Positions 13,244 through 28,929 of a stretch of DNA of 64,000 bases are shown in pieces. Below the pieces are notes generated by a model. The model made no database searches, had not been told where the DNA came from, and worked only from the letters and a program-made list of their open reading frames with translations. Both the position numbers and the translations under genes were made by a program. The stretch is from Caulobacter sp. (GTDB taxonomy: Bacteria > Pseudomonadota > Alphaproteobacteria > Caulobacterales > Caulobacteraceae): the NCBI RefSeq assembly GCF_035254145.1, contig NZ_DATFAV010000215.1:1229-65228 (forward strand), given 5' to 3'. The first letter of the stretch is position 1, and each line of letters starts with the position of its first letter.

Positions 13244-13245
13244 CC

Positions 13246-14442: not shown

Positions 14443-14502
14443 GCCGGCCGCGCTTTGGCGCGAGGATATCGATGGCGGGTGTTTTTCTGGAGTTCGACGA
14501 CC

Positions 14503-14910: not shown

Positions 14911-14926
14911 ACCCCTTCGGCTCGGC

Positions 14927-15979
14927 TTACTGAAGCAGCAGGCCCAGCGGCTCGCCGCCGTCCGCATAGGCCACCCGGGTGCGGATGACGTAGCGCTGGC
15001 CGTCGATCAGCTTGGCGCGGATGGCCGCGTTGTCGGACGTGCCCGCATCGTCGGCCGAGGCCAGATGGCGGGGCTCGCCGTTGCGCTCCTCGAACAGCAC
15101 GATGCGCGCATCCGACGCCCCCAGGGTCTGGATCGTGTAGTCGCGCGTGGCGTCGGGCTGGAAGACGAAGTCACGCTGCGCGCCCGCCGCCGCCGGCAGG
15201 GGCGTCACCGACATGGCCGCGATCGGAGCCGCCGGCGCCAGGGCCGGATACCAGTGACCAGCCCAGGTCCGGTCGGTGGGCGACAGCACGATATTCTCGC
15301 CCACGCCGGTGACGTCATAGGGCGCCGGCGCCTTGATCAGCCCTTTGCGGAACGGATAGTGCATGACCGAAGCCGGATCCCAGGCCGAGCCGTCGACACT
15401 GTTGGACGGCAGCTTGGCGATGATGTTGTCGTAGGTCGTCTTGCGGTCCCAGCCGTCGCTGGCCAGGTGGTGGGCATAGACCGCCTCCTCGTCCCAGACG
15501 ATGCCGGCCAGCGGGTTCTGGTGCTCGTGCTCCAGGCCCAGGGCGTGGCCGATCTCGTGCAGGGCGGTGGCGCCGCCCCACGCCGTCGTCAGGTCCCAGC
15601 CGAAGTTCATGTTGCGGTCGCGATCGCGGTTCTTGAGGATCGCCGTGCCCACCCACGACCAGCTGCCGTCGCCTTGCCAGCGGCCAATCAGGATCTCGGC
15701 CTCGCTCTCCTTGGGCTCCTCGCGGAAGGTCAGGCCGGGGGCCACGGTCTTCCATTGGGCGAAGGCGGCGCGCACCACGGCCTTCTGCGCCTCGGGCCAG
15801 TTCCAGTCCTCGCGGACGACGAAGCAGTAGCGCAGCACTGTTCCGTTCATCCACTTGTTGTCGCTGCGCCGGATGGCGAAGGCGCGCCCGGGGGCCAGGT
15901 CGGCCGGCAACGGACGGGCCATCGACGGCGGCTGGGCGCACATCGGCCTATCCTCGGCCGAAGTTCTTTGCTCGGACAT
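14927..15979 (-). CDS. Zincin metallopeptidase (M12/astacin-like) with C-terminal beta-sandwich
   Basis: HEIGHALGLEHEH zinc motif, SVMHY Met-turn; GGAGG RBS; no obvious signal peptide. Confidence 0.88.
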   Translation of the reverse strand: MSEQRTSAEDRPMCAQPPSMARPLPADLAPGRAFAIRRSDNKWMNGTVLRYCFVVREDWNWPEAQKAVVRAAFAQWKTVAPGLTFREEPKESEAEILIGRWQGDGSWSWVGTAILKNRDRDRNMNFGWDLTTAWGGATALHEIGHALGLEHEHQNPLAGIVWDEEAVYAHHLASDGWDRKTTYDNIIAKLPSNSVDGSAWDPASVMHYPFRKGLIKAPAPYDVTGVGENIVLSPTDRTWAGHWYPALAPAAPIAAMSVTPLPAAAGAQRDFVFQPDATRDYTIQTLGASDARIVLFEERNGEPRHLASADDAGTSDNAAIRAKLIDGQRYVIRTRVAYADGGEPLGLLLQ

Positions 15980-15980
15980 C

Positions 15981-17360
15981 TCAATTTCCTCCGTTTACGG
16001 ATTGATCGATGGTCGCCTCGGCCGGGCAAGCCGAACCGCCGGCCGCCAGGATCTCGCGGCAGGCGCGCAGGCGGTTCAGCGTCTGTTGGGTGGTGAGCGC
16101 GTCGATCTCGGACTTCTGGCGCGCCGTCGTGGAATTGGCGGCGGCGAAGGCGGCAGCCTGCTCGGCCGCGCCCGCCAGGCCGGCGGCGATCGTCTCTGCC
16201 CGCGCTTTCGCGGTCCAGCTGGCCTCGGAGGTCCGGCCGAACTTGTCGAGGCTCAGGTTCACGTCGCGGTCCCCGCCCTTCAGGTCGAGAAACTCGACGA
16301 CGCCCCATTGCGGCATGGGCAGGGTTTTGGCGGCCGTGGCCAGAACCTTCCCGCCACCGGCGCCGGACTTGGGCGCCATGAACCCGGCCTCGACAGCGAC
16401 ATAGACCGGACGCGGCAGGCAGACGCCGAGAACGCTCTTCTCGTCCTTCCCGGCCGGCGCGAGCTTCTGCCTGCAGATCTCGGCCTGGGCCGTCTCGGTC
16501 GAAGGGGGGGTCACGCCGGCAGGCGGCGTGACGGTCCACTCGACCTCGAACACCCGGGGCGGGCTATTCTCGGCCAGCCAAGGCAGGTCTTGCTTGTCCA
16601 GGTCCAGCGTCGCCTGGGCGGTGTATGTGCGCTTGCCGCTGGACCCGACAGGTCCCTCCTTCAGGTCGGCGAGCTTCAACCTCTTCGAGATGTCGGCGTG
16701 GAGGATTCCGGCGCGCAACGTGGACCGCTCGGTCAGCAGGCGATCGATCGCCTTGTTCTGAGCGCTGGCGGCGGCAGGATCAGCGGGAATCGCCTTATCC
16801 CGCCATTCCTTGAGTCGGGCGTCGATCTTCTCGATACGCCTCAGCGCGTCCATCGCCTCCGGCGAACAGGCGGGTAGCTTCTGGGCGGCGGGCTCGTCGC
16901 CCCGGCTTGGTGTGAACGCCGGCCCAACGCCCGCCGCGGCGCCGACGACCTGAGCGGCGAATTTGATCGCATCGCCGACGATCGCGCCCAGGCGGTTCTC
17001 GTTGCTGCTGCCCAGGGTGGCGATGGCGCCGGTGTCATGCAGGGTGAGCTTCAGCTGGCGCTTGATAATGCTGCTTTTCAGCTGTCTCGTGGTCAGCGGA
17101 AACTCCGCATTCGATCCGGCCGCCTCGCCCACCACGGCCATTTCGGCGTCCACGGAGGGATCATCGGCGCAAGACTTCAGCGTCAGCGAGATCTTCGCCG
17201 ACACGGCCGTCTCCGGCAGCTTATAGCGGATCAGTTCGAAATTGGGCGCATGTACGCAGGCGGCGGTCGGGCACGCCAGCATGAGCGTCATTGGCCAGGC
17301 CGCGCCGCGCGCCAGCGCGCGAAGACGGGAGCCTGACCCGCTCTTGGATCGATTGGGCAT
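15981..17360 (-). CDS. Hypothetical exported protein, probable lipoprotein
   Basis: ATG at 17360 after GGAGA; positively charged N-terminus, hydrophobic stretch and TAAC lipobox-like motif; stop 1 bp before the peptidase start. Confidence 0.6.
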   Translation of the reverse strand: MPNRSKSGSGSRLRALARGAAWPMTLMLACPTAACVHAPNFELIRYKLPETAVSAKISLTLKSCADDPSVDAEMAVVGEAAGSNAEFPLTTRQLKSSIIKRQLKLTLHDTGAIATLGSSNENRLGAIVGDAIKFAAQVVGAAAGVGPAFTPSRGDEPAAQKLPACSPEAMDALRRIEKIDARLKEWRDKAIPADPAAASAQNKAIDRLLTERSTLRAGILHADISKRLKLADLKEGPVGSSGKRTYTAQATLDLDKQDLPWLAENSPPRVFEVEWTVTPPAGVTPPSTETAQAEICRQKLAPAGKDEKSVLGVCLPRPVYVAVEAGFMAPKSGAGGGKVLATAAKTLPMPQWGVVEFLDLKGGDRDVNLSLDKFGRTSEASWTAKARAETIAAGLAGAAEQAAAFAAANSTTARQKSEIDALTTQQTLNRLRACREILAAGGSACPAEATIDQSVNGGN

Positions 17361-17404
17361 GATGATCTCCTGTTTGAAGGAAGTTCGGACTGAGGGGCGA
17401 CGCC

Positions 17405-17923
17405 TCACGCCGGGGCGTCGAGGCCAAAGACGCGGTCGGCGAGGGCCAGCAGGCCGGAGACCACGATGGCGGCCAGACCGACCAGTTCGCCCCAGGCCGT
17501 CATCCACGCCTCGGGCAGCACGCCCTTGATCGACAGGGCCCAGACGAGAAAGGCGATGGTCGCGGCGGTCGGCGGCCAGGGATGGGGCGTGAACGGCGCG
17601 GGCGGCTGACCGGTGGCGCGCTCGGCTTCTCGCTGTTTGGCGTAGGCCAGGGCCAGATACATGACCGGAGTCAGGACGGCGAAGCCGGCATAGAGCCACA
17701 GACCCAATCGTTCCGGCGGATGCGTCATGGTCGCGACCGCGGCGATCCCGGCCAGGAACAGGGTGATGGTCTCCGCCGGCAGATAGCGGGACAGGGCTTC
17801 GAACACGTCGCCCTTCTCGCCCGCGGGGGGCGGACCGGGCGGTTGACCACCGCCTGGGGCATGAGCCGGGCCGCGGATGGAGCGATTGTCGGCGTGGCGA
17901 CGGGCGAGACTGTTGAGGCTCAT
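17405..17923 (-). CDS. Small membrane protein (about 4 TM) with SRYLPAE motif
   Basis: ATG at 17923 after AGAGGA; Pro/Gly linker followed by hydrophobic helices. Confidence 0.65.
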   Translation of the reverse strand: MSLNSLARRHADNRSIRGPAHAPGGGQPPGPPPAGEKGDVFEALSRYLPAETITLFLAGIAAVATMTHPPERLGLWLYAGFAVLTPVMYLALAYAKQREAERATGQPPAPFTPHPWPPTAATIAFLVWALSIKGVLPEAWMTAWGELVGLAAIVVSGLLALADRVFGLDAPA

Positions 17924-18002
17924 CGTTCCTCTCCATGTCAGGTCGCAAGAGCGCGACGGTGAGCGGAATACGGTCACGCTAGGCCCGCGGCGGGGCGTCG
18001 CC

Positions 18003-18020
18003 GCGTGACGGCCGTCACGC
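18003..18020. promoter_or_regulatory. CRP-type operator (CGTGA-N6-TCACG) in the divergent promoter
   Basis: Perfect 18-bp palindrome GCGTGACGGCCGTCACGC with GTGA-N6-TCAC spacing. Confidence 0.6.
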
Positions 18021-18122
18021 GCTGAGAGAGAAGAGCCCACTCCGTGCACGATGACGTTGTGCCCGCGTGCGGTGTCTGCCAGTCTCCGTTCGGGGAACCT
18101 TGGTTTTTAGGCGAGGGGCGCC

Positions 18123-19868
18123 ATGGACGCGGATCAGCCCGCGGCGGCGCGCTATTGGGCGTTCGTCAGCTATAGTCACAGGGACGCGGCGCGCGGCCGG
18201 CGGCTGCATGGGCGCCTGGAGCGCTATGTCCTCCCGCGGCGCCTCGTCGGCCGGATCACGCCGCGCGGCCGCACGCCTCGCCGCCTGGCGCCGATCTTCC
18301 GCGATCGCGAGGAGTTTCCCGCCGCGCACGACCTCAGCACCGAGGTGCGCGCGGCGCTTTCGGTCTCCAACGCCCTCATCGTGATCTGCTCGCCCAACGC
18401 GGCCGCCTCGCCCTGGGTGGCGCGCGAGATCGAGCTGTTCCGCGCCCTGCACCCGGACCGGCCGATCCTGGCGGCCCTGATCGCGGGAGAACCGGACACG
18501 GCCTTCCCCGCTCCGTTGCGCGACCACGCCGAACCCCTGGCCGCCGACTTCCGCCCGGCCGGCGACGGCGAGCGGCTGGCCCTGCTGAAGCTGGTCGCGG
18601 GCATGGCCGGCGTCGGGCTGGACGAACTGATCCAACGCGATGCGCAACGTCGTCTGAGGTCCGTGACGGCCGTCACGGCGCTGTCCCTGTCGGCGGTGCT
18701 AGCCATGGGTCTGCTTACGGCCTTCGCCCTGAGCGCCCGGGACGAGGCCCAGCGACAGCGGGGCCTGGCCCTGGCGGCTCTGGACGAGGCGCGGACCCAG
18801 AGGACGCTGGCCCTGAACGCCCGCGACGAAGCGCAACGGCAAAGGGCCTCGGCCCTGCGGGCGCGCGACGAAGCCCGGCGTCAGCGCGCCGTCGCGCTCG
18901 ACGCCCGCGCCGAGGCCGAGGACCAACGACTGGAAGCCATGGCGATGGTGGAGTTCATGCTGACCGATCTGGGCGACAAGTTGAAAGGCAGCGAACGGCT
19001 GGCGGTGCGCAGCGCCGTCAACCAGCGCGCGCTCGACTACTACGCCGGTCAGCGCCGACTGCCCCCGGCCGCGACAGCCCAGCTCGCCCGGCTGCAAACC
19101 GCCCGGGGCGCGATCTTCGAAGAGAGCGGCGATCTGGATGCGGCGATGATGAAGTTCGCTCAGTCCTTCAGGACCACCACGCGCCTCAGCGAGGCGGCGC
19201 CGAAGAACGCGGCCTACGTCTTCAACCACGCCCAGAACGAGGCCTATGCGAGCAAGGTGGCGTTCATCCGCGCGGACTGGAAGACGGCCCAGGCCGGCTA
19301 CCGGCGCTACAACGCCCTGGCCGAACGCCTGATCGCGCTCCGGCCCGACAATCTCGATTACCGCCGGGAGATCGGCTACGCGCAGGGCAACCTTTGCTCG
19401 GTGGCCTTGCGGATGCGCGACACGCCCGCGGCGCTGGACTATTGCGGCCGGGCGCTGCGGACGATGCGCGACATCGAGGACCGCACGGTCGAGTTGCGGC
19501 GCACCGCCGCGTCCGACGTCGCCAATCGTCATGCCTGGATGGCCGACGTCCGCCAACGCCAGGGCGACCTGACCGGCGCCATGGCCGAGCGGGAGGCGCA
19601 GGAGAAGATCCTCGCCGCCCTCCTGGCCGAGCGCCCCAAGGACCTGGACACCCGCGCCGACTGGATCGCCCTACAGCAGGGCTTGGCCAGCCTCGCCTAC
19701 GCCGCCGGAGATCGCGCCGGCGCCCTCAAGCGCCTGAACGACGTGCGACCGACGGCCGTCACCCTCCTGGAGGACGACACCGACCGGCAGCGCGCCAAGA
19801 AGCTGCTGGCCCAGATCGACGCCAGACTCACCTACTTCAACCAACAAGCGAAGGAAGATCGGAAATGA
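18123..19868 (+). CDS. TIR domain - TM - coiled-coil stalk - TPR protein (cassette 1)
   Basis: AFVSYSHRD, IFRDREE, LIVICSPNAAASPWVAREIELF (TIR); one TM helix; TPR-like helical repeats. Confidence 0.85.
   Translation: MDADQPAAARYWAFVSYSHRDAARGRRLHGRLERYVLPRRLVGRITPRGRTPRRLAPIFRDREEFPAAHDLSTEVRAALSVSNALIVICSPNAAASPWVAREIELFRALHPDRPILAALIAGEPDTAFPAPLRDHAEPLAADFRPAGDGERLALLKLVAGMAGVGLDELIQRDAQRRLRSVTAVTALSLSAVLAMGLLTAFALSARDEAQRQRGLALAALDEARTQRTLALNARDEAQRQRASALRARDEARRQRAVALDARAEAEDQRLEAMAMVEFMLTDLGDKLKGSERLAVRSAVNQRALDYYAGQRRLPPAATAQLARLQTARGAIFEESGDLDAAMMKFAQSFRTTTRLSEAAPKNAAYVFNHAQNEAYASKVAFIRADWKTAQAGYRRYNALAERLIALRPDNLDYRREIGYAQGNLCSVALRMRDTPAALDYCGRALRTMRDIEDRTVELRRTAASDVANRHAWMADVRQRQGDLTGAMAEREAQEKILAALLAERPKDLDTRADWIALQQGLASLAYAAGDRAGALKRLNDVRPTAVTLLEDDTDRQRAKKLLAQIDARLTYFNQQAKEDRK
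18735..18938 (+). repeat. About 5 imperfect 42-bp (14-aa) tandem repeats, ARDEAxRQRxxALx
   Basis: ARDEAQRQRGLALA/ALDEARTQRTLALN/ARDEAQRQRASALR/ARDEARRQRAVALD/ARAEAEDQRLEA. Confidence 0.85.
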
Positions 19869-20497
19869 GCAATCCAACCCGCCTTCTCAGCCAAGAGAAT
19901 AAGTTCGGCAGGATTTCGGGCAACAGGCCCGTCGATTTTAACCCCAAGAAGGTCTTCCATGTCTTTCTGACCATGGATCTATCCAAACCGGGAGACTTAC
20001 AGTTCAACGTCCTGCAGCCGCAGGGGAGCCCTTTCAAATATAAAAGCGATAAAGAACTCGAAGCTTATGCTCTCGGCGCATACGAACATGGCAAATCCTC
20101 GCCGGTTCAATTTCTTCCGAATACGCAATACGATATCGTCGTCAGCGAACAATGCTGGATTATTCTACAACTTGATCCAAGTATTGAAAATTGGCAGTTC
20201 GCACTCGGTGAATTCGGCTGCACGACAAAGAGCGACACAAACGATCGCAACTGCTACCTGCGTCATGTCTATCCTGGACAACTGGGCAAACCAGGCGATC
20301 CCGTCGACAGGAACGGATGCCAGGTTCTCTACTTCGGCGTCTTTCGGCGCGGGGCGCGCGACTCCAACGACGCCAACGACCTGCCGAGCGAACTCTTCAA
20401 CTTCCACACCGAGTTCCTCCAAGCCGCCCTTGGCGCGCGCCTGCCGGTGATCTTCGACCCGGACATCAAGAACGACGCCGACAACAACTTTCCCTAG
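19865..20497 (+). CDS. Hypothetical protein with C-terminal DPDIKN motif (DP-EP/AidA-like beta-sandwich?)
   Basis: ATGA overlap with the TIR gene; 210 aa; AT-rich 5' two-thirds. Confidence 0.7.
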   Translation: MSNPTRLLSQENKFGRISGNRPVDFNPKKVFHVFLTMDLSKPGDLQFNVLQPQGSPFKYKSDKELEAYALGAYEHGKSSPVQFLPNTQYDIVVSEQCWIILQLDPSIENWQFALGEFGCTTKSDTNDRNCYLRHVYPGQLGKPGDPVDRNGCQVLYFGVFRRGARDSNDANDLPSELFNFHTEFLQAALGARLPVIFDPDIKNDADNNFP

Positions 20498-20508
20498 CCC
20501 GCATCGCC

Positions 20509-20532
20509 CCCGGAAGCCGCGAGGCTTCCGGG
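20509..20532. terminator. GC hairpin with GCGA tetraloop between the DP protein and cyclase-like genes
   Basis: CCCGGAAGCC-GCGA-GGCTTCCGGG followed by ACGTTTTG. Confidence 0.55.
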
Positions 20533-20572
20533 ACGTTTTGCTCCATGCGTTCCAGTTCCAGCGAGTACCGGC

Positions 20573-22105
20573 TTGTCCCAATCTTCTCCGCTCGTCGACA
20601 TCATGGCCCTCGCCCGGACGGGCGCGGTCGAGGAGGCCTGGCGGCTGTTTGGCGAATCCGGCCTGGCCGCCGCCCAGGATCCCGCCGCCCTCACGCTGAA
20701 AGGGCGGCTGCTGAAGGACCGCGCGCGGACGGCGCGAGGCCAGGCGCGTCGCGACCTGTTCGTCGAGGCCGCGGCCGCCTATCGCCAGGCGGCGCAACGG
20801 GGCCAGGGCGCCTACGCCTTGATCAACGCCGCCACCCTGTCCCTGCTGGCGGGGGAGATCGAGGCGGCGCGCGCCAACGCCCTGGCCGCCCTCGATGCGC
20901 CTGACAACGACACGCCCTACTATCAGGGCGCGACGCGGGCCGAGGCCCTGCTCGTCCTTGGACGGACGGACGAGGCGAAGGCCGCGCTGACCGAGGCGGT
21001 GTCGCGCGCGCCTCGCGCCTGGGAAGACCACGCCGTCACCCTGCGGCAGTTCCGCCTGATCCTGACCGAACAGGGCCAGGGCGACGACTGGCTCTCGGTG
21101 CTGACCCCGCCCCGCGCCTTGCACTTCACTGGCCACATGGCCCTGTCGGCCGACGAAGGCCTGGCCGGCCGTATCGCCGACGTGCTTGGCCAGGAGAAGG
21201 TGGCGTTCGGCTACGGCGCGATCGCCGCCGGCGCCGACATCCTGATCGCCGAGGCCCTGGTCGAGGCCGGCGCGGCGCTGCACGTGGTGTTGCCGACCAA
21301 CGCCGAAGTGTTCCGCGAGCGGTCCGTCCGTCCGTGGGGCGAGGCCTGGGTGGCGCGCTACGACCGGCTTCTGGTCCTGGCCGACAGCGTGCAGGCGACC
21401 ACCCCCGACCTGGCGCGGGTCTCGCGAGACGCGATCGCCCTGGCCGACGAGACCGCGATGGGGATGACGGTGCTCAAGGCCGCCAGCCTGGCCGGCGAAG
21501 CCCTGCAATTGGCCATGCTGGATCCCGAGCGCCCCGACGCCAGCGGATCGGCCGCCGCGCGCTGGCGAGGCGCCGGCCGCCGCCAGCAGCTGATCGAGGT
21601 TCGTCGCCTGCCGCCCGCCCAAGGCGCGGACGAGCCGACGCCTCCAGAACGGGCGCCGACCGCCCTGCTGGGCTGCGCGCTGGACCTGCCCCTGGACGCC
21701 GATCCGACAGAAGCCCTCGCCACGCTGTCGCGTGTCCTCGCCGCCGCGCCCGCCGGCGTCGCCGCGCCCGCCTGGACCGGCCGCCAATTGCTGCTCGCCT
21801 ACGCCACGCCCGGCCAGGCGGCCCAGGCGGCGGCCGCCTTGCGCGCGGCGCTGGGCCCACGGGCTCGGCTGGCGGGCGCCCATGGTCTGGCGCGGCTGGC
21901 GGCCAGCCCCGTCGGCCACGGGACCATCGCCATCGGTCGGGGGGCCGAGATCGTGACCGCCTATCTCGCGGTGACGCCGCCCGGCGCGGTCTATCTGGAC
22001 CTGCCGTTCGCCGCCGCCCTCTGCGTCGACGCCCCGCCGGACCTAGTCGGCAAGATCATGAACCTGACCGGCGACGCCCTGGGTCCCTACGCCCTTCGCC
22101 CCTAG
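20573..22105 (+). CDS. TPR (DUF4071/TPR-S-like) - SLOG - degenerate class III cyclase-like protein
   Basis: LALARTGA, LKGRLLKD, YALINAATL, FTGH, FGYGAIAAGADILIAE; collinear with 23939..25684 but both cyclase Asp motifs are missing; TTG start. Confidence 0.75.
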   Translation: MSQSSPLVDIMALARTGAVEEAWRLFGESGLAAAQDPAALTLKGRLLKDRARTARGQARRDLFVEAAAAYRQAAQRGQGAYALINAATLSLLAGEIEAARANALAALDAPDNDTPYYQGATRAEALLVLGRTDEAKAALTEAVSRAPRAWEDHAVTLRQFRLILTEQGQGDDWLSVLTPPRALHFTGHMALSADEGLAGRIADVLGQEKVAFGYGAIAAGADILIAEALVEAGAALHVVLPTNAEVFRERSVRPWGEAWVARYDRLLVLADSVQATTPDLARVSRDAIALADETAMGMTVLKAASLAGEALQLAMLDPERPDASGSAAARWRGAGRRQQLIEVRRLPPAQGADEPTPPERAPTALLGCALDLPLDADPTEALATLSRVLAAAPAGVAAPAWTGRQLLLAYATPGQAAQAAAALRAALGPRARLAGAHGLARLAASPVGHGTIAIGRGAEIVTAYLAVTPPGAVYLDLPFAAALCVDAPPDLVGKIMNLTGDALGPYALRP

Positions 22106-22111
22106 CGCCCC

Positions 22112-22780
22112 CTATTCGATCAGGCCTTCCAATCGCTTGGGCGCGACGATGATCAAGGCCTGGGCGGTGCGCCTGATCACCCCTCGCCGCTCCAGCGCGC
22201 TGACCGCGCGCGACACGGTCTCGCGCGTCGTCTGCAGGTCCAGCGCCAGGGCCGCCAGGACGGGCGGAGGGCTGATGGTCCAGTTGTGGGGTTCGGCGCG
22301 CCGCAGCAGCTCGGCATGGATCCGGCCCACGGCGCTCAGGGTGTTGCGGTCGATGATGCGCTCGGTCGACCCCCGCAGTCGGGCCAGCAACATCCGCGAC
22401 AGGGCCAGGCCCACGCAGCTGTGACGCTCCAGCAGGCGCAGGAAGTCCAGGGCCGCGAACACCGCCGCGCGGGCCGTCTCCAGCGCGGTCACCTCGGTCT
22501 CGCTGCGCGCGCCGGGCTGCACGGTGGCGCCGAACAGGTCTCCGGGCGCGTAGTCGTAAAGCAGGATCGCGTTTCCGGTCCGCCCCACGGCGGCGGCGCG
22601 CGCCCGGCCCAGGGTCAGCAGGTAGGTCTCGGCGCAACGGTCGCCCTGGCGGATGATCACCCCGCCCGGCTGATAGGCGCGCTCGACCGCCGCCGCGGCG
22701 ATGCCGCCGGCCACGTCCTCCGGACAGTGGAAGACCTCCCGCGCGAAGGCGGCCAATGCGGACTGATGAGCAGACGACAT
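22112..22780 (-). CDS. Crp/Fnr family regulator with atypical cNMP pocket
   Basis: IIRQGD, PGDLFGA, HTH TTRETVSRAVSALERRGVI; ATG at 22780. Confidence 0.88.
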   Translation of the reverse strand: MSSAHQSALAAFAREVFHCPEDVAGGIAAAAVERAYQPGGVIIRQGDRCAETYLLTLGRARAAAVGRTGNAILLYDYAPGDLFGATVQPGARSETEVTALETARAAVFAALDFLRLLERHSCVGLALSRMLLARLRGSTERIIDRNTLSAVGRIHAELLRRAEPHNWTISPPPVLAALALDLQTTRETVSRAVSALERRGVIRRTAQALIIVAPKRLEGLIE

Positions 22781-22864
22781 CCAACGCCCCCCGCGTCGAC
22801 CCTCGCCAGCATGGCACGAGCCGCCAAGCGCGGACAACCGGCTCGCGGACCCGTCGCCCCTGGC

Positions 22865-23233
22865 TTATTGCGGCCGATCCCGCAGGGCTTCGACAATCAC
22901 CCGGTTGGCGGTTTCACAGCGGCTCTCCCCGAACTGGCGCTCGATCCTCGGCAGGGCCTTGAAGCGGACCTCCAGCTCGGCGGCGGCCGCCTGGGCCCGC
23001 CCCGCGGCCTGGCGCGACTCGGCCAGGCGCTCGCGAGTCTGGGCCAGTTCGGCCAGAATACCGTCGCGGTCGGCGGAAAGGTCGGCCATCTCGCGCCTCA
23101 CCCGCGCCAGCCGCGCCCGCAGGCGAAGCAGCCGCGTCGCCAGCCACGCCACCACCGCCGGCAAACCGATCGACAGGATCTGGGCCGCGAGGATCACGGC
23201 GGGGGTGTCGGTCAGGCTCAGCGGGACGACCAT
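22865..23233 (-). CDS. Small TM + coiled-coil hypothetical protein (122 aa)
   Basis: ATG at 23233 after GAGAAAG; hydrophobic helix followed by heptad-like LARVRREMADL... Confidence 0.5.
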   Translation of the reverse strand: MVVPLSLTDTPAVILAAQILSIGLPAVVAWLATRLLRLRARLARVRREMADLSADRDGILAELAQTRERLAESRQAAGRAQAAAAELEVRFKALPRIERQFGESRCETANRVIVEALRDRPQ

Positions 23234-23461
23234 GTCTTTCTCTACATCCGGGATTAGCGGGCGACGCTGTGAAGACCCGAGCGGCCGCGCCGCCCAGGTC
23301 CTCCACGACGGACGTCCAGTCGTCCTGAAGACGCTGGAGTCCGTCGACTTGCCGCCCCAATTTCCCCACCGGGGCGACAACCTCTTGAAACAACACTTGC
23401 TGGCGCGAGCGCGCGGCGGCGAACGGGTCCGGCGCCGGGTCGCGCGCCGAACGGCAGCGGA

Positions 23462-23662
23462 TTACGCCCTCAAGCCGCTGGGCTGTCGGCCGTCGTCGAT
23501 CGTGGCCAGGGCGAAATCCAAGACCTCGCCGATCACCCCGGACAGACTGTCTTCGGCCACGCCCTGTTCGCGAGCCCAGATCTTAAGGGCGTGGCGAAGG
23601 AAGGTCGTGCCGGCCTCCGGCGCGCGCCCGGCTTCGGCCATGGCGAAATCGTTCACGGACAT
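23462..23662 (-). CDS. Small hypothetical protein (66 aa)
   Basis: ATG at 23662 after GCAGGAG; GC3-biased codons. Confidence 0.5.
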   Translation of the reverse strand: MSVNDFAMAEAGRAPEAGTTFLRHALKIWAREQGVAEDSLSGVIGEVLDFALATIDDGRQPSGLRA

Positions 23663-23836
23663 GGCGCGGCTCCTGCTCGGTTCGGGACGCGGGGTCCCTT
23701 GGGAGATTTGAAAAGTGGACCCGGCCGGCGGTGACCGGGCCCCAGTTCGGTTCACGCGGCCGGAAGCTCTGGGTCAGGAACTGGCTCATCGCGTCCGGTC
23801 GACGCCTGAACCATGTGTGGTGAAGCTGTTTTTGGA

Positions 23837-23852
23837 TGTGCCGATTTTCACA
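23837..23852. promoter_or_regulatory. CRP box TGTGC-N6-TCACA
   Basis: TGTGCCGATTTTCACA, 9 of 10 consensus positions, in an AT-rich intergenic region. Confidence 0.7.
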
Positions 23853-23938
23853 TCAAGAGAAATAACGGTTTTTCCTCAGTCGCCCTGAAGACGCCCTGAA
23901 GGCGCCCTGAGCCCCGCGAAGACGGCGGCGCGCTTCAG

Positions 23939-25684
23939 TCAGGCGCGCGAAAGAGAGAAGATCGGGGTCGCCGCAAAGCCCTTGCGCCCTTGGGTTCGCC
24001 CGACATAGCCGCACCGCACGCGGTCGCCGTGGAAGGTGGCCAGCGCGCCGGCCAAGGCCTCGCTGACATAGGCCGAGCCGGGCGCGACGTCCGGCTCGAT
24101 ACGCGCGGCGACGACGACATGGGCGCCGATCACGGCCGGCGCCTTGGTCAGCGGGTTGGTGCGCAGATGCACGGGTCCGTAGTGGCCGCCGATCCGCAGC
24201 CCCAGCCCCCGCGGCAGCCCAAGGCTTCGCATGTCCAGCGCCCGGTGCGCCTCCAGTAGGGCCAGGGCCGCCAGCGCCGCGTCGATCGGTTGGTCGAAGA
24301 CCAGGAAGAGGCCGTCGCCCCAGGTCTCGACATGGCGTGGCGGCGCCTCCAGCCCCTCGACGACCTCGGCGATACGGCCCATCACCCCCTCGATGAAGGC
24401 CGGGATCTGGTGATCTCGCAGAGCGCCGAAACCCTGGACGTCGGCGAACAGCATGGCCTTCATCGCCCGCGCGCCGACCTCGACCGGCGAGATAAGGCGG
24501 GGCGGACGCGGGGTCGGGCGGTCGATCGGGATCACCGTCGCCGGGCGATCCCCCCGCGCCCAGTAGGCCAGGTCGGATGAGACGCCGGCGGGGCCGGGCG
24601 CGTCCTGGCCGTCCCACACCGCCAGTTGCACCGCCTGGGTCGAAAGGGTCTGGGCCCGCAGCACCGCGCAGCCCATGGCGAACTGACTGGCGTAGGCGAA
24701 CACCTGCTCGTCGCCGAGATAGGCGTCCTGCGAGGCGTAGCGGATGGAGGTCGCCCGCGCGAGGCAGCGCTCGAAGCGGTCGACCCAATCGGGTCCGAAC
24801 GGCTCCACCGACACCTCGACGAAGGAGGCTCGACTGACCGGCAGGACGACGTGCAGCTCGGCGCCGGCGTCCAGCAGCGCCTCGGCGAAGACGATGTCGG
24901 CGCCCGCGGCCAAACCGCCATAGCCGAAGCCGACCCGCTGTGTCCGCAGCGCCTCGTCGATACGCGCCCGCAACGCCGTGTCGGCCACGTCCAGGATGTG
25001 GCCGGTGAAATGGGCGCAGACCGGCGGACGAAACGGTGCGAGCCACGCGGCGTCCAGGCCGGTCTCGTGGCACAGCATCTCCAGCTGGCGCAGGGTCGAG
25101 GCGTGGGCGGCGTAGGCGCGCGGCGCCAGGGTCAGGCCCTGCGCCAGGGTTTGGCGCGCGCCGTCCAGGTCGCCGATGAGGAAACGGGCCTCGGCGAGGC
25201 TGGCGGCCACATAATAGGCCGCCTCGCCTGTCAGGCCCGGCGGGGTGTCCATCGCCAGGACCGATCGGGCCTGGTCCGCCGCGCCCGCGCGGTCTCCCGC
25301 CACCAGGGTCATGGTCGCGGCGTTGATGGCGCCATAGGTCCCGCCCGACCGCTCGGACAACGCTTCGTATCGCCGGCGCGAGGCCTTGGCGAACGCGGCG
25401 CGGCGCGCCCCCCGGCTGGAGAGGGCGACGTCCTTCAGCAGCCGGGCGCCCAGCGCGACCGTGTCGGCGTCCGCGTCCTGGGCCAGGCCCAGACGGACAT
25501 ATTCGGACCGCGCGAAATCAAGGGCGCCCGCCCGCGCCAAGCACAGCACCGCCGCATAGGCGGCGGCGCGCGGAGCCTCGCCCCCCTCCAGCGCGGCGTG
25601 GGCGATGTCGTAGGCGGCGAGGATTTCGCCGCGCCGGATCAGCGCGGCGACCGCCTCACCGTCGAACGGCGGGTCTGCGCTCAG
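23939..25684 (-). CDS. TPR (DUF4071/TPR-S-like) - SLOG - class III nucleotide cyclase
   Basis: FGYGGLAAGADIVFAE (SLOG), MLFADVQGF, ETWGDG, RIGGHYGP, AARIEP; frame open upstream of GTG 25549 to CTG 25684. Confidence 0.85.
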   Translation of the reverse strand: MSADPPFDGEAVAALIRRGEILAAYDIAHAALEGGEAPRAAAYAAVLCLARAGALDFARSEYVRLGLAQDADADTVALGARLLKDVALSSRGARRAAFAKASRRRYEALSERSGGTYGAINAATMTLVAGDRAGAADQARSVLAMDTPPGLTGEAAYYVAASLAEARFLIGDLDGARQTLAQGLTLAPRAYAAHASTLRQLEMLCHETGLDAAWLAPFRPPVCAHFTGHILDVADTALRARIDEALRTQRVGFGYGGLAAGADIVFAEALLDAGAELHVVLPVSRASFVEVSVEPFGPDWVDRFERCLARATSIRYASQDAYLGDEQVFAYASQFAMGCAVLRAQTLSTQAVQLAVWDGQDAPGPAGVSSDLAYWARGDRPATVIPIDRPTPRPPRLISPVEVGARAMKAMLFADVQGFGALRDHQIPAFIEGVMGRIAEVVEGLEAPPRHVETWGDGLFLVFDQPIDAALAALALLEAHRALDMRSLGLPRGLGLRIGGHYGPVHLRTNPLTKAPAVIGAHVVVAARIEPDVAPGSAYVSEALAGALATFHGDRVRCGYVGRTQGRKGFAATPIFSLSRA

Positions 25685-26088
25685 GGAACCCGGCCCGCGC
25701 CGTTCTCGACGTCAGGATCGAGATCGATCTTCTGTTCGTGGCCGTCCAGCATGAACAGGCTGTAGGTGTAGACGCCCATCCGCGCGCATTCGTAGATCAC
25801 CTTGAAGCAGGTGCGCTCGGCGAACGTCGCGCGGCCAGGCCACTCGGTCACCCAGACATAGCTGGAGAAGTTGACGCCATAGTCGTCGGCGACCTTGATC
25901 GGCCGGCGCTGGAAGGTCCATCCGGCCTTGATCAGTTGGTCGCTGAGCACGAAGACCAACTCGCAGCGCTCGCTGAGATCCAGCTTGAGCCGCGTCGGCT
26001 TCGTCGGATCCGCGAAGTTCATGAAATTGAAGTTGTCATCCAGGCCGATGACCAGTTCGACGACTTTACGAGGTGTGGGTTCAGTCAT
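25681..26088 (-). CDS. Hypothetical protein with C-terminal DPDVEN motif (DP-EP/AidA-like?)
   Basis: 135 aa; ATGA overlap with the TIR gene; beta-strand pattern. Confidence 0.7.
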   Translation of the reverse strand: MTEPTPRKVVELVIGLDDNFNFMNFADPTKPTRLKLDLSERCELVFVLSDQLIKAGWTFQRRPIKVADDYGVNFSSYVWVTEWPGRATFAERTCFKVIYECARMGVYTYSLFMLDGHEQKIDLDPDVENGAGRVP

Positions 26089-28148
26089 TCGTGCGCCTCC
26101 CGAGCTTGAGCTAAAGCTTCACCTACGGTGGAGTCTCGCCAGAAGGCAAGGAACCCCGGGTGGGCGTATCCATGCTTGGCAAGGTCGCTGACGATGCTCG
26201 CGGCCTGGTCGGCCCGGCCATCCGCGAGATAGGCGCGGGCCAGGATGTCCAGGCTGGCGGGCGAGAGCGAGGCCCGACGCGCGCCCAGGACCTCGACGGC
26301 GGCGCCGCCACGTCCCGCCGCCCATTCCGCGAAACCATAGAGCGCGGCGCTATCGGCCTCCTTTCGCCAGTTCGTGACCTTCATGCGCGCGGCCAGCGCC
26401 TCTGACATCCGTTGAGCCTTAGCGGACTGTCCGCCGCGCCGCGCCAGGATGATCGAAAGCTGGTCCAGCCGGCCGTCCAGATCGGCGCGCCAGGCCTCGG
26501 CCTTGGGGCCGGATCGCAGTCGGGCCAGCATCGCGGCCGCGTCGGCGCGAGCGGCCTCGGCCTCCTTGAGCCGGCCCGACCACATCGCCAGCTCCAGGGT
26601 GTCCATTCGCCCGATCATCAGAAATTCGCGCCACCGAACATTGGTCGGGTCGAGCGCGGCCAGGTCTTGGAGCCGCGCGACGTTGCGCTCGGACCTGGCC
26701 CGCGCCTCCGCCCCTCGACCAAGATCAAGGTCCAGCCGGGCCAGCGCCAGTTCGGCCCCCACGCTCCGCACCCGCAGGCGCTTGTCGGCCGGATATTTCG
26801 CGATGGCTTGCGACAGGATGCGCACCGCGGCCTCGCGTTCGGCCAGCGCCTCGCGCGGACGTCCCAGCCGCAGCAGGCAGTCGGCGGCCCAGGCCCGCGA
26901 ATTGGCCGCGCCTTCCAGCAAGGTCCGATCCTGTGGGGCGCGCGCGCGTTCCGCCTCGAACACGGCCTGGCCGGCGCGGAACGCCTCCAACGCCTCGGTC
27001 GGCCGATCCTGCTCGAACAGCAAGGTGCCGAGATTGTTCTTGGCGTACGCGACCTCGACCCGCCACTCGGGACGGTTGGGATCGATCGCCACCAAGGTCT
27101 GGGCCAGGTCGCCGTAGCGCTTGAAGCCGCGCTCGGCGCCGGCGACATCCTCGCGCCGCCATTCCACATAGGCCTGCCAGAAGACGTTCTGGGCCTCGTC
27201 GAAGATGCGCTCGCCGTTGCGCGGATCGCGCTGGACCAGGGCGTGGGTCGTCGCCGCCGCCTGGCTGAAGGCGTCCTGGGCGCCGGCCAGGTCGCCGCGC
27301 TGCTCGCGGATGGTGCCCAGCAAAGTCTGAGCCTTGGCGCGCTGGCCGAGCGCCTTGTCGTCGAGGCGCTCGGTCGGCGCCTTGGCGTAGTAGGCCAGGA
27401 CCTTGGCGCTGACGCCGTCCAGCACATCCAGCCGCCCCACCGGCTCGAGCTGCTGGCGCAGGTCGCCCAGCATGAAGGCCACCAGCGCCTCGGTCTCGTC
27501 GCGCTGTTGCCGGGCGATCTGGCGGGACTTCAGCGTGGCAACCGTCATGGCGCCCATGCCGATCGCCAGGACAACAGCCGCGGCGGTGAACGCCGCCATC
27601 ACCTGCAGGCGTCGGCGCGCGTCGCGTTGGACCAGCTGATCCAGGCGCACGCCCAGCAGTTGCGCGGCGATTTTCAGGCGCGCCAGACGAGGGCCGTCGC
27701 CGTCCCGGCGCAGGTCCACGGCCAGGGGCTCGACGCCCTGCGGCAAAATAGCGCGGAGGGCGGGCGGCAGCACCGCGTCCAGCGCCGTTCCAGCCGGCAG
27801 TCCCGGCGCGATCACGCAGATGATCCGGCCAGCGTCCCGGGTCTTCAGGAAATAGTCGACCTCCTGATCCACCCAGCGCGAGGCGGCGGAAGCGGGCGAA
27901 CACAGCACGATCAGGGCGTCAGAGCGGTCCAGAGCGCTGCGGATCACCTCGTTCAGGTCCAGCGAGGCGCTCAGTTCGTCGCGATCGCGGAAGATCGGGC
28001 GCAGCGTCCGCCAGCCCCCATCGTTCTCGCCCTTGGCCAGTCCGCGCGGCGCCCGATAGGCCTCCAAGGCGCGATGCAGCCAAACAGCGGTTTTGAGATC
28101 GCGGTGACTATAGCTGATAAAGGCTCTGTACCGCTGTCGACTATCCAT
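26085..28148 (-). CDS. TIR domain - TM - TPR protein (cassette 2)
   Basis: AFISYSHRD, IFRDRDE, LIVLCSPASAASRWVDQEVDYF; TM helix; TPRs; ATG at 28148. Confidence 0.87.
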   Translation of the reverse strand: MDSRQRYRAFISYSHRDLKTAVWLHRALEAYRAPRGLAKGENDGGWRTLRPIFRDRDELSASLDLNEVIRSALDRSDALIVLCSPASAASRWVDQEVDYFLKTRDAGRIICVIAPGLPAGTALDAVLPPALRAILPQGVEPLAVDLRRDGDGPRLARLKIAAQLLGVRLDQLVQRDARRRLQVMAAFTAAAVVLAIGMGAMTVATLKSRQIARQQRDETEALVAFMLGDLRQQLEPVGRLDVLDGVSAKVLAYYAKAPTERLDDKALGQRAKAQTLLGTIREQRGDLAGAQDAFSQAAATTHALVQRDPRNGERIFDEAQNVFWQAYVEWRREDVAGAERGFKRYGDLAQTLVAIDPNRPEWRVEVAYAKNNLGTLLFEQDRPTEALEAFRAGQAVFEAERARAPQDRTLLEGAANSRAWAADCLLRLGRPREALAEREAAVRILSQAIAKYPADKRLRVRSVGAELALARLDLDLGRGAEARARSERNVARLQDLAALDPTNVRWREFLMIGRMDTLELAMWSGRLKEAEAARADAAAMLARLRSGPKAEAWRADLDGRLDQLSIILARRGGQSAKAQRMSEALAARMKVTNWRKEADSAALYGFAEWAAGRGGAAVEVLGARRASLSPASLDILARAYLADGRADQAASIVSDLAKHGYAHPGFLAFWRDSTVGEALAQAREAHE

Positions 28149-28182
28149 GCGTCGCCCCCGACCGACAGCAGGAGCGTACTCG

Positions 28183-28929
28183 ATGAAAACGTTTTCGCCA
28201 TCATCCTCGCGCGCTTCGTCCACTGGGGCGGACGGGCTTTCGCCGAACGACCACCGGGCCAACCGGATCTTCCGGCACATGTCGCCCGAGGAGATCAGCG
28301 CGCTGGGGCCGTCGATCGAGCACCTGACCTACGGCAAAGGCGAGATGATCCTTCAGCGTCGTGACGAGGAAGGCGGGATCTATCTGTTGCTGGAGGGCGT
28401 CCTGCTGGCCAATCAATACGCCCGCTCGGGCCGCGAGGTCGGCTATCGGCGCATCGCCGCCGGCAGCTATTTCGGCGAGATCTCGGCGATCGACGGCCTG
28501 CCCCGCTCGGTCAACGTCGTGGCGCTGGAGGATGCGCGCATCGCGCGCCTGCCTCAGTCGCTGGTCCGTCGCCTGTTCGAGGAATCGCCGCGCTTCATGA
28601 AGGCGCTGCTGGAGGACATGGCGGGCCTGGCCCGGGCCCTGACCGACCGCCTGTTCGAGCTGACCGCCGTGTCGGTGGCCTGCCGGGTCGACATCGAGTT
28701 GCTGCGGATGGCTGGCGTGGCGGGCGGCGACGGCCAGCGCGCGGTGATCAGCCCCTGCCCCACCCATGCCGAACTGGCCGCCCTGCTGGGCAGCCAGCGC
28801 GAGCCGGTGACGCGGGAGCTGAACCGCCTGGCCGGCCTGGGCATCGTGCGCCAGACCGGCCGCACCCTTCACGTCCTCGACCTCCCGGCCCTGGCCGGAG
28901 AGGTCGAGCGGATCGGCGGGGAGATCTAG
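28183..28929 (+). CDS. Crp/Fnr family regulator with canonical cNMP pocket
   Basis: YFGEISAIDGLPRS phosphate-binding cassette, HTH SQREPVTRELNRL; ATG at 28183 after CAGGAG. Confidence 0.9.
   Translation: MKTFSPSSSRASSTGADGLSPNDHRANRIFRHMSPEEISALGPSIEHLTYGKGEMILQRRDEEGGIYLLLEGVLLANQYARSGREVGYRRIAAGSYFGEISAIDGLPRSVNVVALEDARIARLPQSLVRRLFEESPRFMKALLEDMAGLARALTDRLFELTAVSVACRVDIELLRMAGVAGGDGQRAVISPCPTHAELAALLGSQREPVTRELNRLAGLGIVRQTGRTLHVLDLPALAGEVERIGGEI

What the first reader, a model, noticed from the sequence alone, without database searches (positions are those of the whole stretch)
20573..25684. Active cyclase plus pseudo-cyclase pair behind SLOG domains, with non-canonical base-specificity residues
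Seen: the minus-strand copy keeps both metal Asps (FADV, TWGD) and the Arg (AARIE). It has Glu at the adenylyl-cyclase Lys position (ETWGD), Ala at the second specificity site, and Val in place of the VN Asn. The plus-strand copy is collinear but has lost both Asps. Known: class III cyclases work as dimers, and altered-specificity class III enzymes make cCMP/cUMP (Pycsar). Inference: an unusual cNMP product and a regulatory active/inactive heterodimer.
Basis: partly seen in the sequence, partly recalled or inferred. Interest (0 to 1): 0.78.

Follow-up and report, generated by a model that had tools for sequence, protein, structure and literature searches.

The report
Two TIR-linked sensor cassettes, one cyclase dead
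A soil Caulobacter carries two sister four-gene signalling cassettes side by side; one ends in an intact, guanylyl-cyclase-like enzyme with a matching cyclic-nucleotide-binding regulator, while the other has lost both the enzyme's active site and the regulator's nucleotide pocket, so they look like parallel systems and not a working enzyme pair.

Summary
The sequence observation is correct. The minus-strand protein (A, 23939-25684) is TPR-S + SLOG-fold + class III cyclase domain. It keeps both metal Asps, the Arg and the phosphate Lys. It has Glu/Ala at the two base-specifying sites and Val at the Asn site, invariant in 121 orthologues. The plus-strand protein (B, 20573-22105) has the same three domains, but its cyclase domain lacks every catalytic residue class (hhalign 99.7%; AF2 model matches only class III cyclases).

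- Glu plus a small residue is the guanylyl-cyclase signature, not a Pycsar one, and no PycC model matches.
- B lacks both halves of the shared active site, so an A:B heterodimer would have no complete catalytic site.
- A and B each belong to their own four-gene cassette: Crp regulator, membrane TIR-TPR, pNTSase1-like protein, sensor.
- The cassettes are 460 kb apart in C. segnis. A stands without B within 8 kb in 31 Caulobacter species. B-type cassettes occur alone in other genera.
- Every A-type cassette has a Crp with an intact cNMP phosphate-binding cassette. Every B-type Crp examined has lost it.

Best reading: TIR product → SLOG/TPR-S → cyclase → cGMP (or cAMP) → Crp. B is a cNMP-independent derivative. 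This wiring is inferred, not shown.

The parts
18123..19868 (+). Cassette 1: TIR domain - one transmembrane helix - TPR-like region (581 aa)
   Evidence: Pfam TIR_2 3.5e-9 and ThsB_TIR. It is 35% identical to the cassette-2 TIR protein over 518 aa. The TM segment and tandem ARDEAQRQR-type repeats are read from the translation.
19865..20497 (+). Cassette 1: pNTSase1-family small protein (210 aa); its start overlaps the TIR stop (ATGA)
   Evidence: Pfam PF20301, 41 bits, E = 2.3e-10. The ATGA overlap was read.
20573..22105 (+). Protein B (510 aa): TPR-S (about 20573-21097), SLOG-fold domain (about 21098-21607), degenerate class III cyclase domain (about 21608-22102)
   Evidence: Pfam TPR-S. 40% identity to A over 348 aa. 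C-terminal domain: hhalign 99.4-99.7% to the active family; AF2 pLDDT 93 and Foldseek hits all cyclases. Catalytic columns are not conserved in 120 relatives. dN/dS of the C-terminal domain is 0.24-0.54.
22112..22837 (-). Cassette 1: Crp/Fnr-family regulator with a degenerate phosphate-binding cassette (FGA...; no Glu, no conserved Arg-Ser/Thr)
   Evidence: Pfam cNMP_binding + HTH_Crp_2. Phosphate-binding-cassette alignment.
22865..23755 (-). Two small conserved ORFs downstream of A (22865-23380 and 23462-23755), also found after A in the C. segnis clade
   Evidence: tblastn 70% and 54% identity to the 122-aa and 67-aa genes of C. segnis. Function unknown.
23939..25684 (-). Protein A (581 aa if started at CTG 25684; 536 aa from GTG 25549): TPR-S (about 25034-25684), SLOG-fold domain (about 24515-25033), intact class III cyclase domain (23942-24499)
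   Evidence: Pfam TPR-S and PF00211. Family profile against the PDB, E = 7.7e-17. SLOG fold. 111 of the 150 nearest cluster representatives share all three domains. dN/dS of the cyclase domain is 0.06-0.16.
24101..24442 (-). Active-site codons of A: D370 (24440-24442), E408 (24326-24328), D412 (24314-24316), A472 (24134-24136), V479 (24113-24115), R483 (24101-24103); K523 lies at 23981-23983
   Evidence: Column mapping against solved cyclases. Invariant or nearly so (A472 in 119, V479 in 120) in 121 orthologues.
25681..26088 (-). Cassette 2: short pNTSase1-like protein (135 aa)
   Evidence: No Pfam hit on its own. hhalign 93.7%, E = 2e-7, to the pNTSase1-like small proteins of other cassettes; shared C-terminal IDP[DK][IV]xN motif. 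The Kordiimonas counterpart hits PF20301 at 28.9 bits.
26085..28148 (-). Cassette 2: TIR - TM - TPR protein (about 687 aa from the Met matching orthologues; the ORF is open to 28280)
   Evidence: Pfam ThsB_TIR 5.5e-12, TIR_2 7.3e-12, and TPR. The W-x-x-x-E motif (SRWVDQEV) is read from the sequence.
28183..28929 (+). Cassette 2: Crp-family regulator with an intact phosphate-binding cassette (FGEISAIDGLPRS), divergent from the TIR gene
   Evidence: Pfam cNMP_binding 1.5e-16 and HTH_Crp_2. Phosphate-binding cassette compared across 50 loci. The start is set by orthologues.

Best explanation
The region holds two paralogous, self-contained signalling cassettes lying tail to tail. Each has four genes: a Crp-family regulator, a membrane-anchored TIR-TPR protein, a small pNTSase1-like protein, and a TPR-S/SLOG/cyclase-domain protein.

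Cassette 2 (protein A). The cyclase domain is intact and should work as a homodimer. Its Glu/Ala base-specifying pair points to cGMP, possibly with cAMP as a side or dual product. I infer the following chain: the TIR protein makes an NAD-derived nucleotide; the SLOG and/or TPR-S module of A binds it and switches the cyclase on; the neighbouring Crp, which keeps a canonical cyclic-nucleotide pocket, reads the cNMP and changes transcription.

Cassette 1 (protein B). The same architecture has lost all catalytic cyclase residues, and its Crp has in parallel lost the phosphate-binding residues. This cassette no longer signals through a cNMP. Its pseudo-cyclase domain is kept under weaker purifying selection, probably as a dimerisation or partner-binding module.

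Shown: domain identities, residue states, cassette composition, their independence across genomes, and the cyclase/Crp co-variation. Inferred: enzyme activity, the product, ligand sensing by SLOG/TPR-S, the direction of signal flow, and the output of cassette 1.
For: Domains and residues: A; B; SLOG fold and invariant GxD motif; this motif is the predicted ligand-binding signature of YpsA-clade SLOG domains, PMC6459960.

Paralogy of all four gene pairs.

Independence of the cassettes:
- C. segnis carries them 460 kb apart.
- 31 Caulobacter loci have crp/TIR/small/A with no B within 8 kb.
- Complete B-type cassettes (TIR, small protein, B, Crp) occur alone in Phenylobacterium and another proteobacterium; in Sphingomonas only B and Crp are adjacent.

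Co-variation. Every Crp next to an active-type cyclase (about 50 loci; Caulobacter, Kordiimonas, Maricaulis, Woodsholea and others) has FGE...R[ST/A]. All five distinct B-type cassettes have FG[A/T/S] and no conserved Arg-Ser/Thr.

Selection. dN/dS is lowest in A's cyclase domain (0.06-0.16) and relaxed but below 1 in B's (0.24-0.54).

Literature.
- In guanylyl cyclases Glu replaces Lys and carries most GTP specificity, while the second site is variable (PMC7384201).
- Alphaproteobacteria have cGMP-activated Crp proteins encoded next to guanylyl cyclase genes (CgrA with gcyB/C; Clr) (PMC10187061).
- SLOG domains bind TIR-made cADPR isomers in Thoeris. A TPR of the Aravind type accompanies a cADPR-responsive effector in type VIII Thoeris.
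Against: - No activity, product or ligand has been measured.
- The canonical Asn is Val, which could lower turnover.
- The wider clade mostly has Asn, not Glu, at the base site. Specificity rules may therefore differ in this clade, and Glu alone does not prove a guanylyl cyclase.
- SLOG assignment rests on modest TM-scores (about 0.45) and has no sequence-family hit.
- The signal could flow the other way (cNMP or Crp controlling TIR expression).
- The role of the pNTSase1-like protein is unknown.
- Many members of the family (Stellaceae, Arenimonas and others) have no TIR or Crp within 8 kb, so TIR coupling is not universal.
- In the window's own lineage the cassettes are adjacent, so cross-talk there is not excluded.
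Confidence: 0.6

Rival explanations
1. First reader's model. A and B form a regulatory active/inactive cyclase heterodimer, and A makes an unusual cyclic nucleotide (cCMP/cUMP, as in Pycsar).
For: A and B are homologous along their whole length. They lie 1.8 kb apart in this genome and in its close relatives. Class III cyclases are obligate dimers. A lacks the adenylyl-cyclase Lys/Asp pair and the Asn.
Against: - B lacks the Asp pair and also the Arg, the base residues and the Lys. A heterodimer would therefore have no complete active site, unlike tmAC C1/C2 or sGC alpha/beta, where the halves are complementary.
- The cassettes are unlinked in C. segnis. A occurs without a nearby B in 31 species, and B occurs without A elsewhere.
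- No PycC model matches.
- Glu plus a small residue is the guanylyl-cyclase pattern.
- B's own Crp has lost its nucleotide pocket, which fits a separate, rewired cassette.
Confidence: 0.1
2. The cassettes are Thoeris-like anti-phage systems. Phage infection triggers the TIR, the SLOG protein senses the signal, and the cNMP or Crp output drives an abortive or protective response. B-type cassettes are a variant with another effector mode.
For: TIR (ThsB-like) plus a SLOG-fold sensor is the Thoeris logic. TPR-S and pNTSase1 are Pfam families named from predicted nucleotide-based conflict systems. The genomic position of the A cassette varies among Caulobacter species. cGMP-based defence with TIR partners now exists (Pucsar).
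Against: - No PADLOC system model matches the sensors.
- The output is a transcription factor, not a toxic effector.
- The TIR proteins are membrane-anchored with a large TPR region, like environmental receptors.
- Flanking genes are metabolic or envelope genes, not defence genes.
- The cassette is found in at least 31 Caulobacter species.
Confidence: 0.2
3. A is an ordinary adenylyl (or dual-specificity) cyclase, and its non-canonical residues carry no information on specificity, as in Rv1900c-type enzymes.
For: Most of the clade has Asn at the Lys site and His/Gln/Glu two residues before the Asn column. This resembles mycobacterial cyclases that are active adenylyl cyclases without the canonical residues; the Rv1900c comparison is from my own knowledge, and the Ma1120 alignment is. 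The adjacent Crp has a generic phosphate-binding cassette that fits either purine cNMP.
Against: Glu408 and Ala472 are invariant or nearly so in 121 Caulobacter orthologues, while the rest of the clade uses Asn, Asp or Ala, which suggests a lineage-specific change of substrate. The Crp C-helix pair changes in step: Thr-Asp in Caulobacter against Thr-Thr elsewhere.
Confidence: 0.25

Closest known systems
Guanylyl cyclase + cGMP-responsive Crp modules of alphaproteobacteria (Rhodospirillum centenum gcyB/gcyC-cgrA; S. meliloti Clr)
   Same: A class III cyclase gene lies next to a Crp-family regulator with an intact cNMP pocket, in an alphaproteobacterium. Glu sits at the purine-specifying site.
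   Different: Here the cyclase is fused to TPR-S and a SLOG-fold domain and is operonic with a membrane TIR protein and a pNTSase1-like protein. The product and Crp ligand are untested. The Crp C-helix has Thr-Asp.
Thoeris (ThsB TIR + ThsA SLOG effector; type VIII ThsI with a TPR)
   Same: A TIR gene lies next to a protein with a SLOG-fold and/or Aravind-type TPR module. In Thoeris those modules perceive TIR-made cADPR-type signals.
   Different: The output domain is a nucleotide cyclase (or a dead copy), not SIR2, a TM domain, Macro or a CMP hydrolase. A Crp regulator is a conserved fourth gene. The TIR protein is membrane-anchored. No ThsA or PADLOC model matches. Anti-phage function is untested.
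Pycsar / Pucsar cyclase systems
   Same: A class III-fold cyclase whose cNMP is read by a neighbouring protein with a cyclic-nucleotide-binding domain. TIR proteins are present in the locus.
   Different: No PycC model hit. The receptor is a DNA-binding Crp, not a CNB-TIR or CNB-TM effector. The TIR proteins here have no CNB domain and probably act upstream. The specificity residues are of the purine (GC) type.
Pseudo-heterodimeric class III cyclases (mammalian AC C1/C2, soluble guanylyl cyclase alpha/beta)
   Same: One catalytically complete and one incomplete homologous cyclase domain are encoded in the same genome.
   Different: In those enzymes the two halves are complementary and form one active site. 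B has lost both halves, is encoded in a separate cassette, and is usually not linked to A.
Mycobacterial minimal or atypical cyclases (Ma1120, Rv1900c)
   Same: They are among the closest solved relatives by sequence (Ma1120 ranks fifth for the family profile, Rv1900c about thirtieth) and among the top fold matches for B's domain. They also lack the canonical Asn in the V-N column.
   Different: Different N-terminal modules. Ma1120 has the Lys/Asp pair, whereas A has Glu/Ala.

Membership tests
Class III nucleotidyl cyclase (PF00211) - protein A | Sequence and fold of the cyclase homology domain | tested here: met
   Pfam 23.7 bits, above the 21.9 cut-off. Family profile against PDB cyclases, E = 7.7e-17.
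Class III nucleotidyl cyclase (PF00211) - protein A | Two metal-binding Asp, transition-state Arg, phosphate-binding Lys | tested here: met
   D370, D412, R483 and K523 are invariant in 121 orthologues and nearly so in 150 distant representatives.
Class III nucleotidyl cyclase (PF00211) - protein A | Transition-state Asn (V-N motif) | tested here: not met
   V479 in A. The clade has Ser/Thr/Asn/Val at this site. The active cyclase Ma1120 has Ala in this column, so the Asn is not strictly required.
Adenylyl cyclase subtype | Lys and Asp (or Thr) at the two base-specifying sites | tested here: not met
   E408 and A472.
Guanylyl cyclase subtype | Glu at the first site and Cys/Ser/Gly-type small residue at the second; GTP preference | tested here: inconclusive
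   The Glu is present and Ala is small, which fits the published rule that the second site is variable. Substrate preference cannot be tested here.
Class III cyclase, catalytically competent - protein B | Catalytic residues retained | tested here: not met
   The fold is retained. D370 is Ala, D412 is Arg, R483 is Ala and K523 is absent. These columns are unconserved in 120 relatives.
SLOG (SMF/DprA-LOG) superfamily - middle domain of A and B | Rossmannoid fold of DprA/LOG type | tested here: met
   AF2 pLDDT 96. Top Foldseek hits are ShosA, DprA, LOG and Moco-carrier protein; E = 1e-4 to 1e-2, TM 0.43-0.46 for the ShosA, H. pylori DprA and most LOG chains.
SLOG (SMF/DprA-LOG) superfamily - middle domain of A and B | Match to a curated SLOG sequence family | tested here: not met
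   No Pfam hit for 25 members and no PDB sequence hit.
SLOG (SMF/DprA-LOG) superfamily - middle domain of A and B | GxD/E ligand-binding signature of the YpsA-like clade | tested here: met
   AAGADI is present, with the Gly and Asp invariant in 25 diverse members. The motif is described in PMC6459960.
Pycsar (PycC + effector) | Cyclase matching PycC models | tested here: not met
   No PADLOC hit for A or B at E <= 0.01.
Pycsar (PycC + effector) | Adjacent effector made of a cNMP-binding domain fused to a TIR or TM killing domain | tested here: not met
   The cNMP-binding proteins here carry an HTH_Crp_2 DNA-binding domain. The TIR proteins have no cNMP-binding domain.
Pycsar (PycC + effector) | cCMP or cUMP product | not testable with these tools
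   Needs an enzyme assay.
Thoeris | ThsB-like TIR gene | tested here: met
   PF08937 and PF13676 hits in both cassettes; weak PADLOC ThsB hits.
Thoeris | Effector with a signal-sensing domain plus a cell-arresting domain (SIR2, TM, Macro-linked and others) | tested here: not met
   A SLOG-fold sensor is present, but the output is a cyclase or pseudo-cyclase. No ThsA model hit.
Thoeris | Protection against phage | not testable with these tools
   Needs plaque assays.
Complementary heterodimeric cyclase (AC C1/C2, sGC alpha/beta type) | Each partner keeps the half-site the other lacks | tested here: not met
   B lacks both half-sites.
Complementary heterodimeric cyclase (AC C1/C2, sGC alpha/beta type) | Partners co-inherited or co-located | tested here: not met
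   460 kb apart in C. segnis. A has no B within 8 kb in 31 species. Adjacent only in the window's close relatives.

The most novel reading that the evidence does not exclude
A two-tier second-messenger relay. A membrane receptor with Toll-like topology (TPR region - TM - TIR) makes an NAD-derived nucleotide. This switches on a SLOG/TPR-S-gated guanylyl cyclase, whose cGMP is read by a dedicated Crp regulator. It would be a Thoeris-type sensor module re-used for transcriptional signalling instead of cell killing. The sister cassette would be a natural experiment in which the cyclase and the Crp nucleotide pocket degenerated together, leaving a cNMP-free version, for example direct pseudo-cyclase-to-regulator coupling.
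Probability: 0.3. Interest if true: 0.8.

Novelty: new variant of a known kind. Interest (0 to 1): 0.55.

Why it matters
TIR-to-SLOG signalling is so far known to end in effectors that arrest or kill the infected cell. Here the same sensor logic appears fused to a nucleotide cyclase and tied to a Crp transcription factor. The architecture is widespread: 111 of the 150 nearest 50%-identity cluster representatives share all three domains.

If the wiring is right, it links NAD-derived and cyclic-mononucleotide messengers in one pathway. It would also give a candidate source and receptor for cGMP in Caulobacter.

The parallel decay of the cyclase site and the Crp nucleotide pocket in B-type cassettes is genomic evidence that the cyclase and the Crp work together. 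It also offers a ready-made contrast for experiments. For the finding as stated, the main result is a correction: this is not a catalytic heterodimer and not a Pycsar-like pyrimidine cyclase.

Tried and rejected
- Direct BLASTP of A against B aligns only the N-terminal 348 residues. Profile and fold methods were needed for the C-terminal domain.
- Single-sequence and profile searches of B against the PDB gave only sub-threshold cyclase hits (E 0.03-0.1).
- The middle-domain profile found nothing in Pfam or the PDB by sequence.
- PADLOC and NCBIfam gave no family for A, B or the small proteins.
- BLASTP of the two small proteins against each other was not significant. Homology needed profiles.
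- The Burroughs 2015 and Burroughs & Aravind 2020 papers that define TPR-S, SLOG and pNTSase1 are not held. What they say about this architecture could therefore not be checked. A figure legend in PMC6459960 lists an adenylyl/guanylyl cyclase among YpsA-clade SLOG contexts.
- The first genome scan with a diverse alignment failed for lack of a conserved stretch.
- No RNA runs exist for this soil-metagenome organism, so expression and the CTG start were not tested.
- I considered that B might keep its first metal Asp through a two-residue register shift. This is left as a caveat, because the other catalytic classes are lost regardless.
- I considered that the A cassette is a fixed core locus. 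This was rejected: its flanks differ among Caulobacter species.

Full report
**Where and what.** The window is high-GC DNA (about 70%) from a soil-metagenome Caulobacter close to C. segnis. Around the finding lie two gene sets of the same composition in opposite orientation.
- Cassette 1: a TIR-TM-TPR protein (18123-19868, +), a pNTSase1-family protein (19865-20497, +), protein B (20573-22105, +) and a convergent Crp-family regulator (22112-22837, -).
- Cassette 2: protein A (23939-25684, -), a 135-aa protein (25681-26088, -), a TIR-TM-TPR protein (26085-28148, -) and a divergent Crp-family regulator (28183-28929, +).

All four gene pairs are paralogous:
- TIR proteins, 35% identity.
- A and B, 40% over their first 348 residues.
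- Crp proteins, 29%.
- Small proteins, by profile comparison only (93.7%, E = 2e-7), with a shared C-terminal IDP[DK][IV]xN motif.

**Checking the observation: protein A.** A's C-terminal domain passes the Pfam cyclase threshold only narrowly. A profile of 25 diverse relatives, however, hits 57 solved class III cyclases, the best at E = 7.7e-17.
- D370 and D412 are the metal ligands.
- R483 is the transition-state Arg.
- E408 is at the Lys/Glu site.
- A472 is at the Asp/Cys site.
- V479 is at the Asn site.

These residues and K523 are invariant or nearly so in 121 orthologues. dN/dS is lowest in this domain, at 0.06-0.16.

**Checking the observation: protein B.** B's last 165 residues align with the active family at 99.4-99.7% hhalign probability. 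They fold with pLDDT 93 into a structure whose 50 best PDB matches are all class III cyclases. B has Ala, Arg, Ala and Ala at the positions of D370, D412, E408 and R483, and it lacks the K523 segment. Across 120 B-type relatives these columns are unconserved, while structural glycines and the R-I-G-G-H-Y-G strand are kept. B's domain still evolves under constraint, with dN/dS 0.24-0.54. B is therefore a true pseudo-cyclase and not a decaying gene.

**The 'SLOG' label.** The middle domain has no sequence-family match. A pLDDT-96 model has ShosA, DprA, LOG and the Moco carrier protein as nearest structures. The family keeps an invariant G-x-D, which is the predicted ligand-binding signature of YpsA-type SLOG domains. 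I accept SLOG at fold level.

**How large the family is.** A's cyclase domain has 2295 relatives among 50%-identity cluster representatives, 1571 of them below E = 1e-10. Of the nearest 150, 111 have the full TPR-S + SLOG + cyclase architecture. Their usual signature is Asn at the Lys site, Asn/Thr/Ser/Gly/Ala at the second site, and Ser/Thr at the Asn site. Only 10 of 150 have Glu. Two conclusions follow:
- The missing Asn is a clade trait and not a peculiarity of this gene.
- The Glu/Ala pair is a derived state of the Caulobacter lineage.

Published structures show that guanylyl cyclases replace Lys/Asp by Glu and a poorly conserved small residue, and that the Glu carries most of the GTP specificity (PMC7384201). 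That makes cGMP the best guess. It gives no support to a pyrimidine product, and no PycC model matches A.

**Are A and B a pair?** Three lines of evidence say no.

1. Chemistry. In class III dimers each active site takes the two Asps from one subunit and the base, Asn and Arg residues from the other (established knowledge on tmAC C1/C2 and sGC alpha/beta). B has neither set, so an A:B dimer would be inactive. B could at most sequester A.
2. Genomics.
   - In C. segnis the A cassette lies at 4.06 Mb and the B cassette at 3.60 Mb.
   - In 31 Caulobacter species genomes the A cassette (crp, TIR, small protein, A) has no B-type gene within 8 kb.
   - B-type cassettes stand alone in Phenylobacterium, Sphingomonas and another proteobacterium.
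   - Adjacency is confined to the window's close relatives. There a block carrying the B cassette and its usual left-hand neighbours sits between two genes that are adjacent in C. segnis.
3. Each cassette has its own matched regulator.
   - Every Crp next to an active-type cyclase (about 50 loci from several genera) keeps the phosphate-binding cassette FGE...R[S/T/A].
   - All five distinct B-type cassettes have FG[A/T/S] and no conserved Arg-Ser/Thr.
   - The cyclase site and the receptor pocket have therefore decayed together. This is the strongest genomic evidence that the cyclase feeds the adjacent Crp in A-type cassettes, and that B-type cassettes do not depend on a cNMP, including one from A.

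**Likely mechanism.** These steps are inferred.
- The TIR proteins carry the W-x-x-x-E motif, one transmembrane helix and a long TPR-like region. They may act as membrane receptors that make an NAD-derived nucleotide.
- SLOG domains bind such molecules in Thoeris, and an Aravind-type TPR accompanies a cADPR-responsive effector. The TPR-S/SLOG module of A is therefore the probable receiver and gate of the cyclase.
- The cNMP then acts on the Crp. This resembles the known cGMP-Crp modules of other alphaproteobacteria.
- The pNTSase1-like protein has no assigned role.
- For cassette 1 the output is unknown. The retained pseudo-cyclase may serve dimerisation or partner binding.

**Comparison and novelty.** The parts are known: class III cyclase, SLOG, TPR-S, pNTSase1, TIR and Crp. 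Comparative genomics has evidently seen SLOG-cyclase contexts, and the Pfam family names point the same way. I found no experimental work on this architecture, and no defence-system model covers it. I rate it a new variant of a known kind.

**Limits.**
- Everything on activity, product, ligand and signal direction is inference.
- The defining bioinformatic papers could not be read.
- Multimer modelling and expression data were not available.

Noticed in passing
window 25549-25684 (-): A's conserved N-terminal 45 codons have no ATG, GTG or TTG. An in-frame CTG (25684-25682) overlaps the TGA stop of the upstream small gene (CTGA), and this is conserved in three relatives. The upstream codons change mainly at third positions. 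This suggests a CTG start with translational coupling. Other Caulobacter species have ATG seven codons further in.
   Followed up: partly
window 18123-19868 (+) and 26085-28148 (-): Both TIR proteins have an N-terminal TIR domain, one transmembrane helix and a long C-terminal TPR-like region, a receptor-like (Toll-like) topology. The cassette-1 protein has tandem ARDEAQRQR-type repeats just after the helix.
   Followed up: no
window 28183-28929 (+); loci L008-L078: The Crp C-helix pair that contacts the base in CAP and Clr is Thr-Asp in all Caulobacter A-type cassettes (cyclase Glu408). It is Thr-Thr in Kordiimonas, Maricaulis and Woodsholea cassettes (cyclase Asn or Asp). This may be ligand co-variation.
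   Followed up: partly
window about 12300-22840: The B cassette and its neighbours (Na+/H+ antiporter, DUF6491, M10-type peptidase, two unknown genes) form a block. It is inserted between a 122-aa gene and a DUF5690 gene that are adjacent in C. segnis.
   Followed up: partly
window 22865-23380 (-) and 23462-23755 (-): Two small conserved ORFs (about 122 and 67 aa; the larger has a hydrophobic segment and a coiled-coil-like region) follow A here and in the C. segnis clade. They may belong to the A cassette in that clade.
   Followed up: no
window 28148-28183: The divergent starts of the cassette-2 TIR gene and its Crp gene are only about 34 bp apart, and 35 bp in C. segnis. Promoters must therefore overlap coding sequence, or the mRNAs are leaderless.
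   Followed up: no
loci L048, L052, L056, L071, L078 (Maricaulis and relatives): Their cassette cyclases have Asp at the Lys/Glu site, Ala at the second site and Pro instead of the phosphate Lys. This is a third signature within TIR- and Crp-linked cassettes.
   Followed up: no
loci L043-L047, L054-L070 and others (Stellaceae, Nevskiaceae, Arenimonas): Many TPR-S/SLOG/cyclase genes with a uniform Asn/Asn/Ser signature have no TIR or Crp gene within 8 kb. Their partners, if any, were not identified.
   Followed up: no
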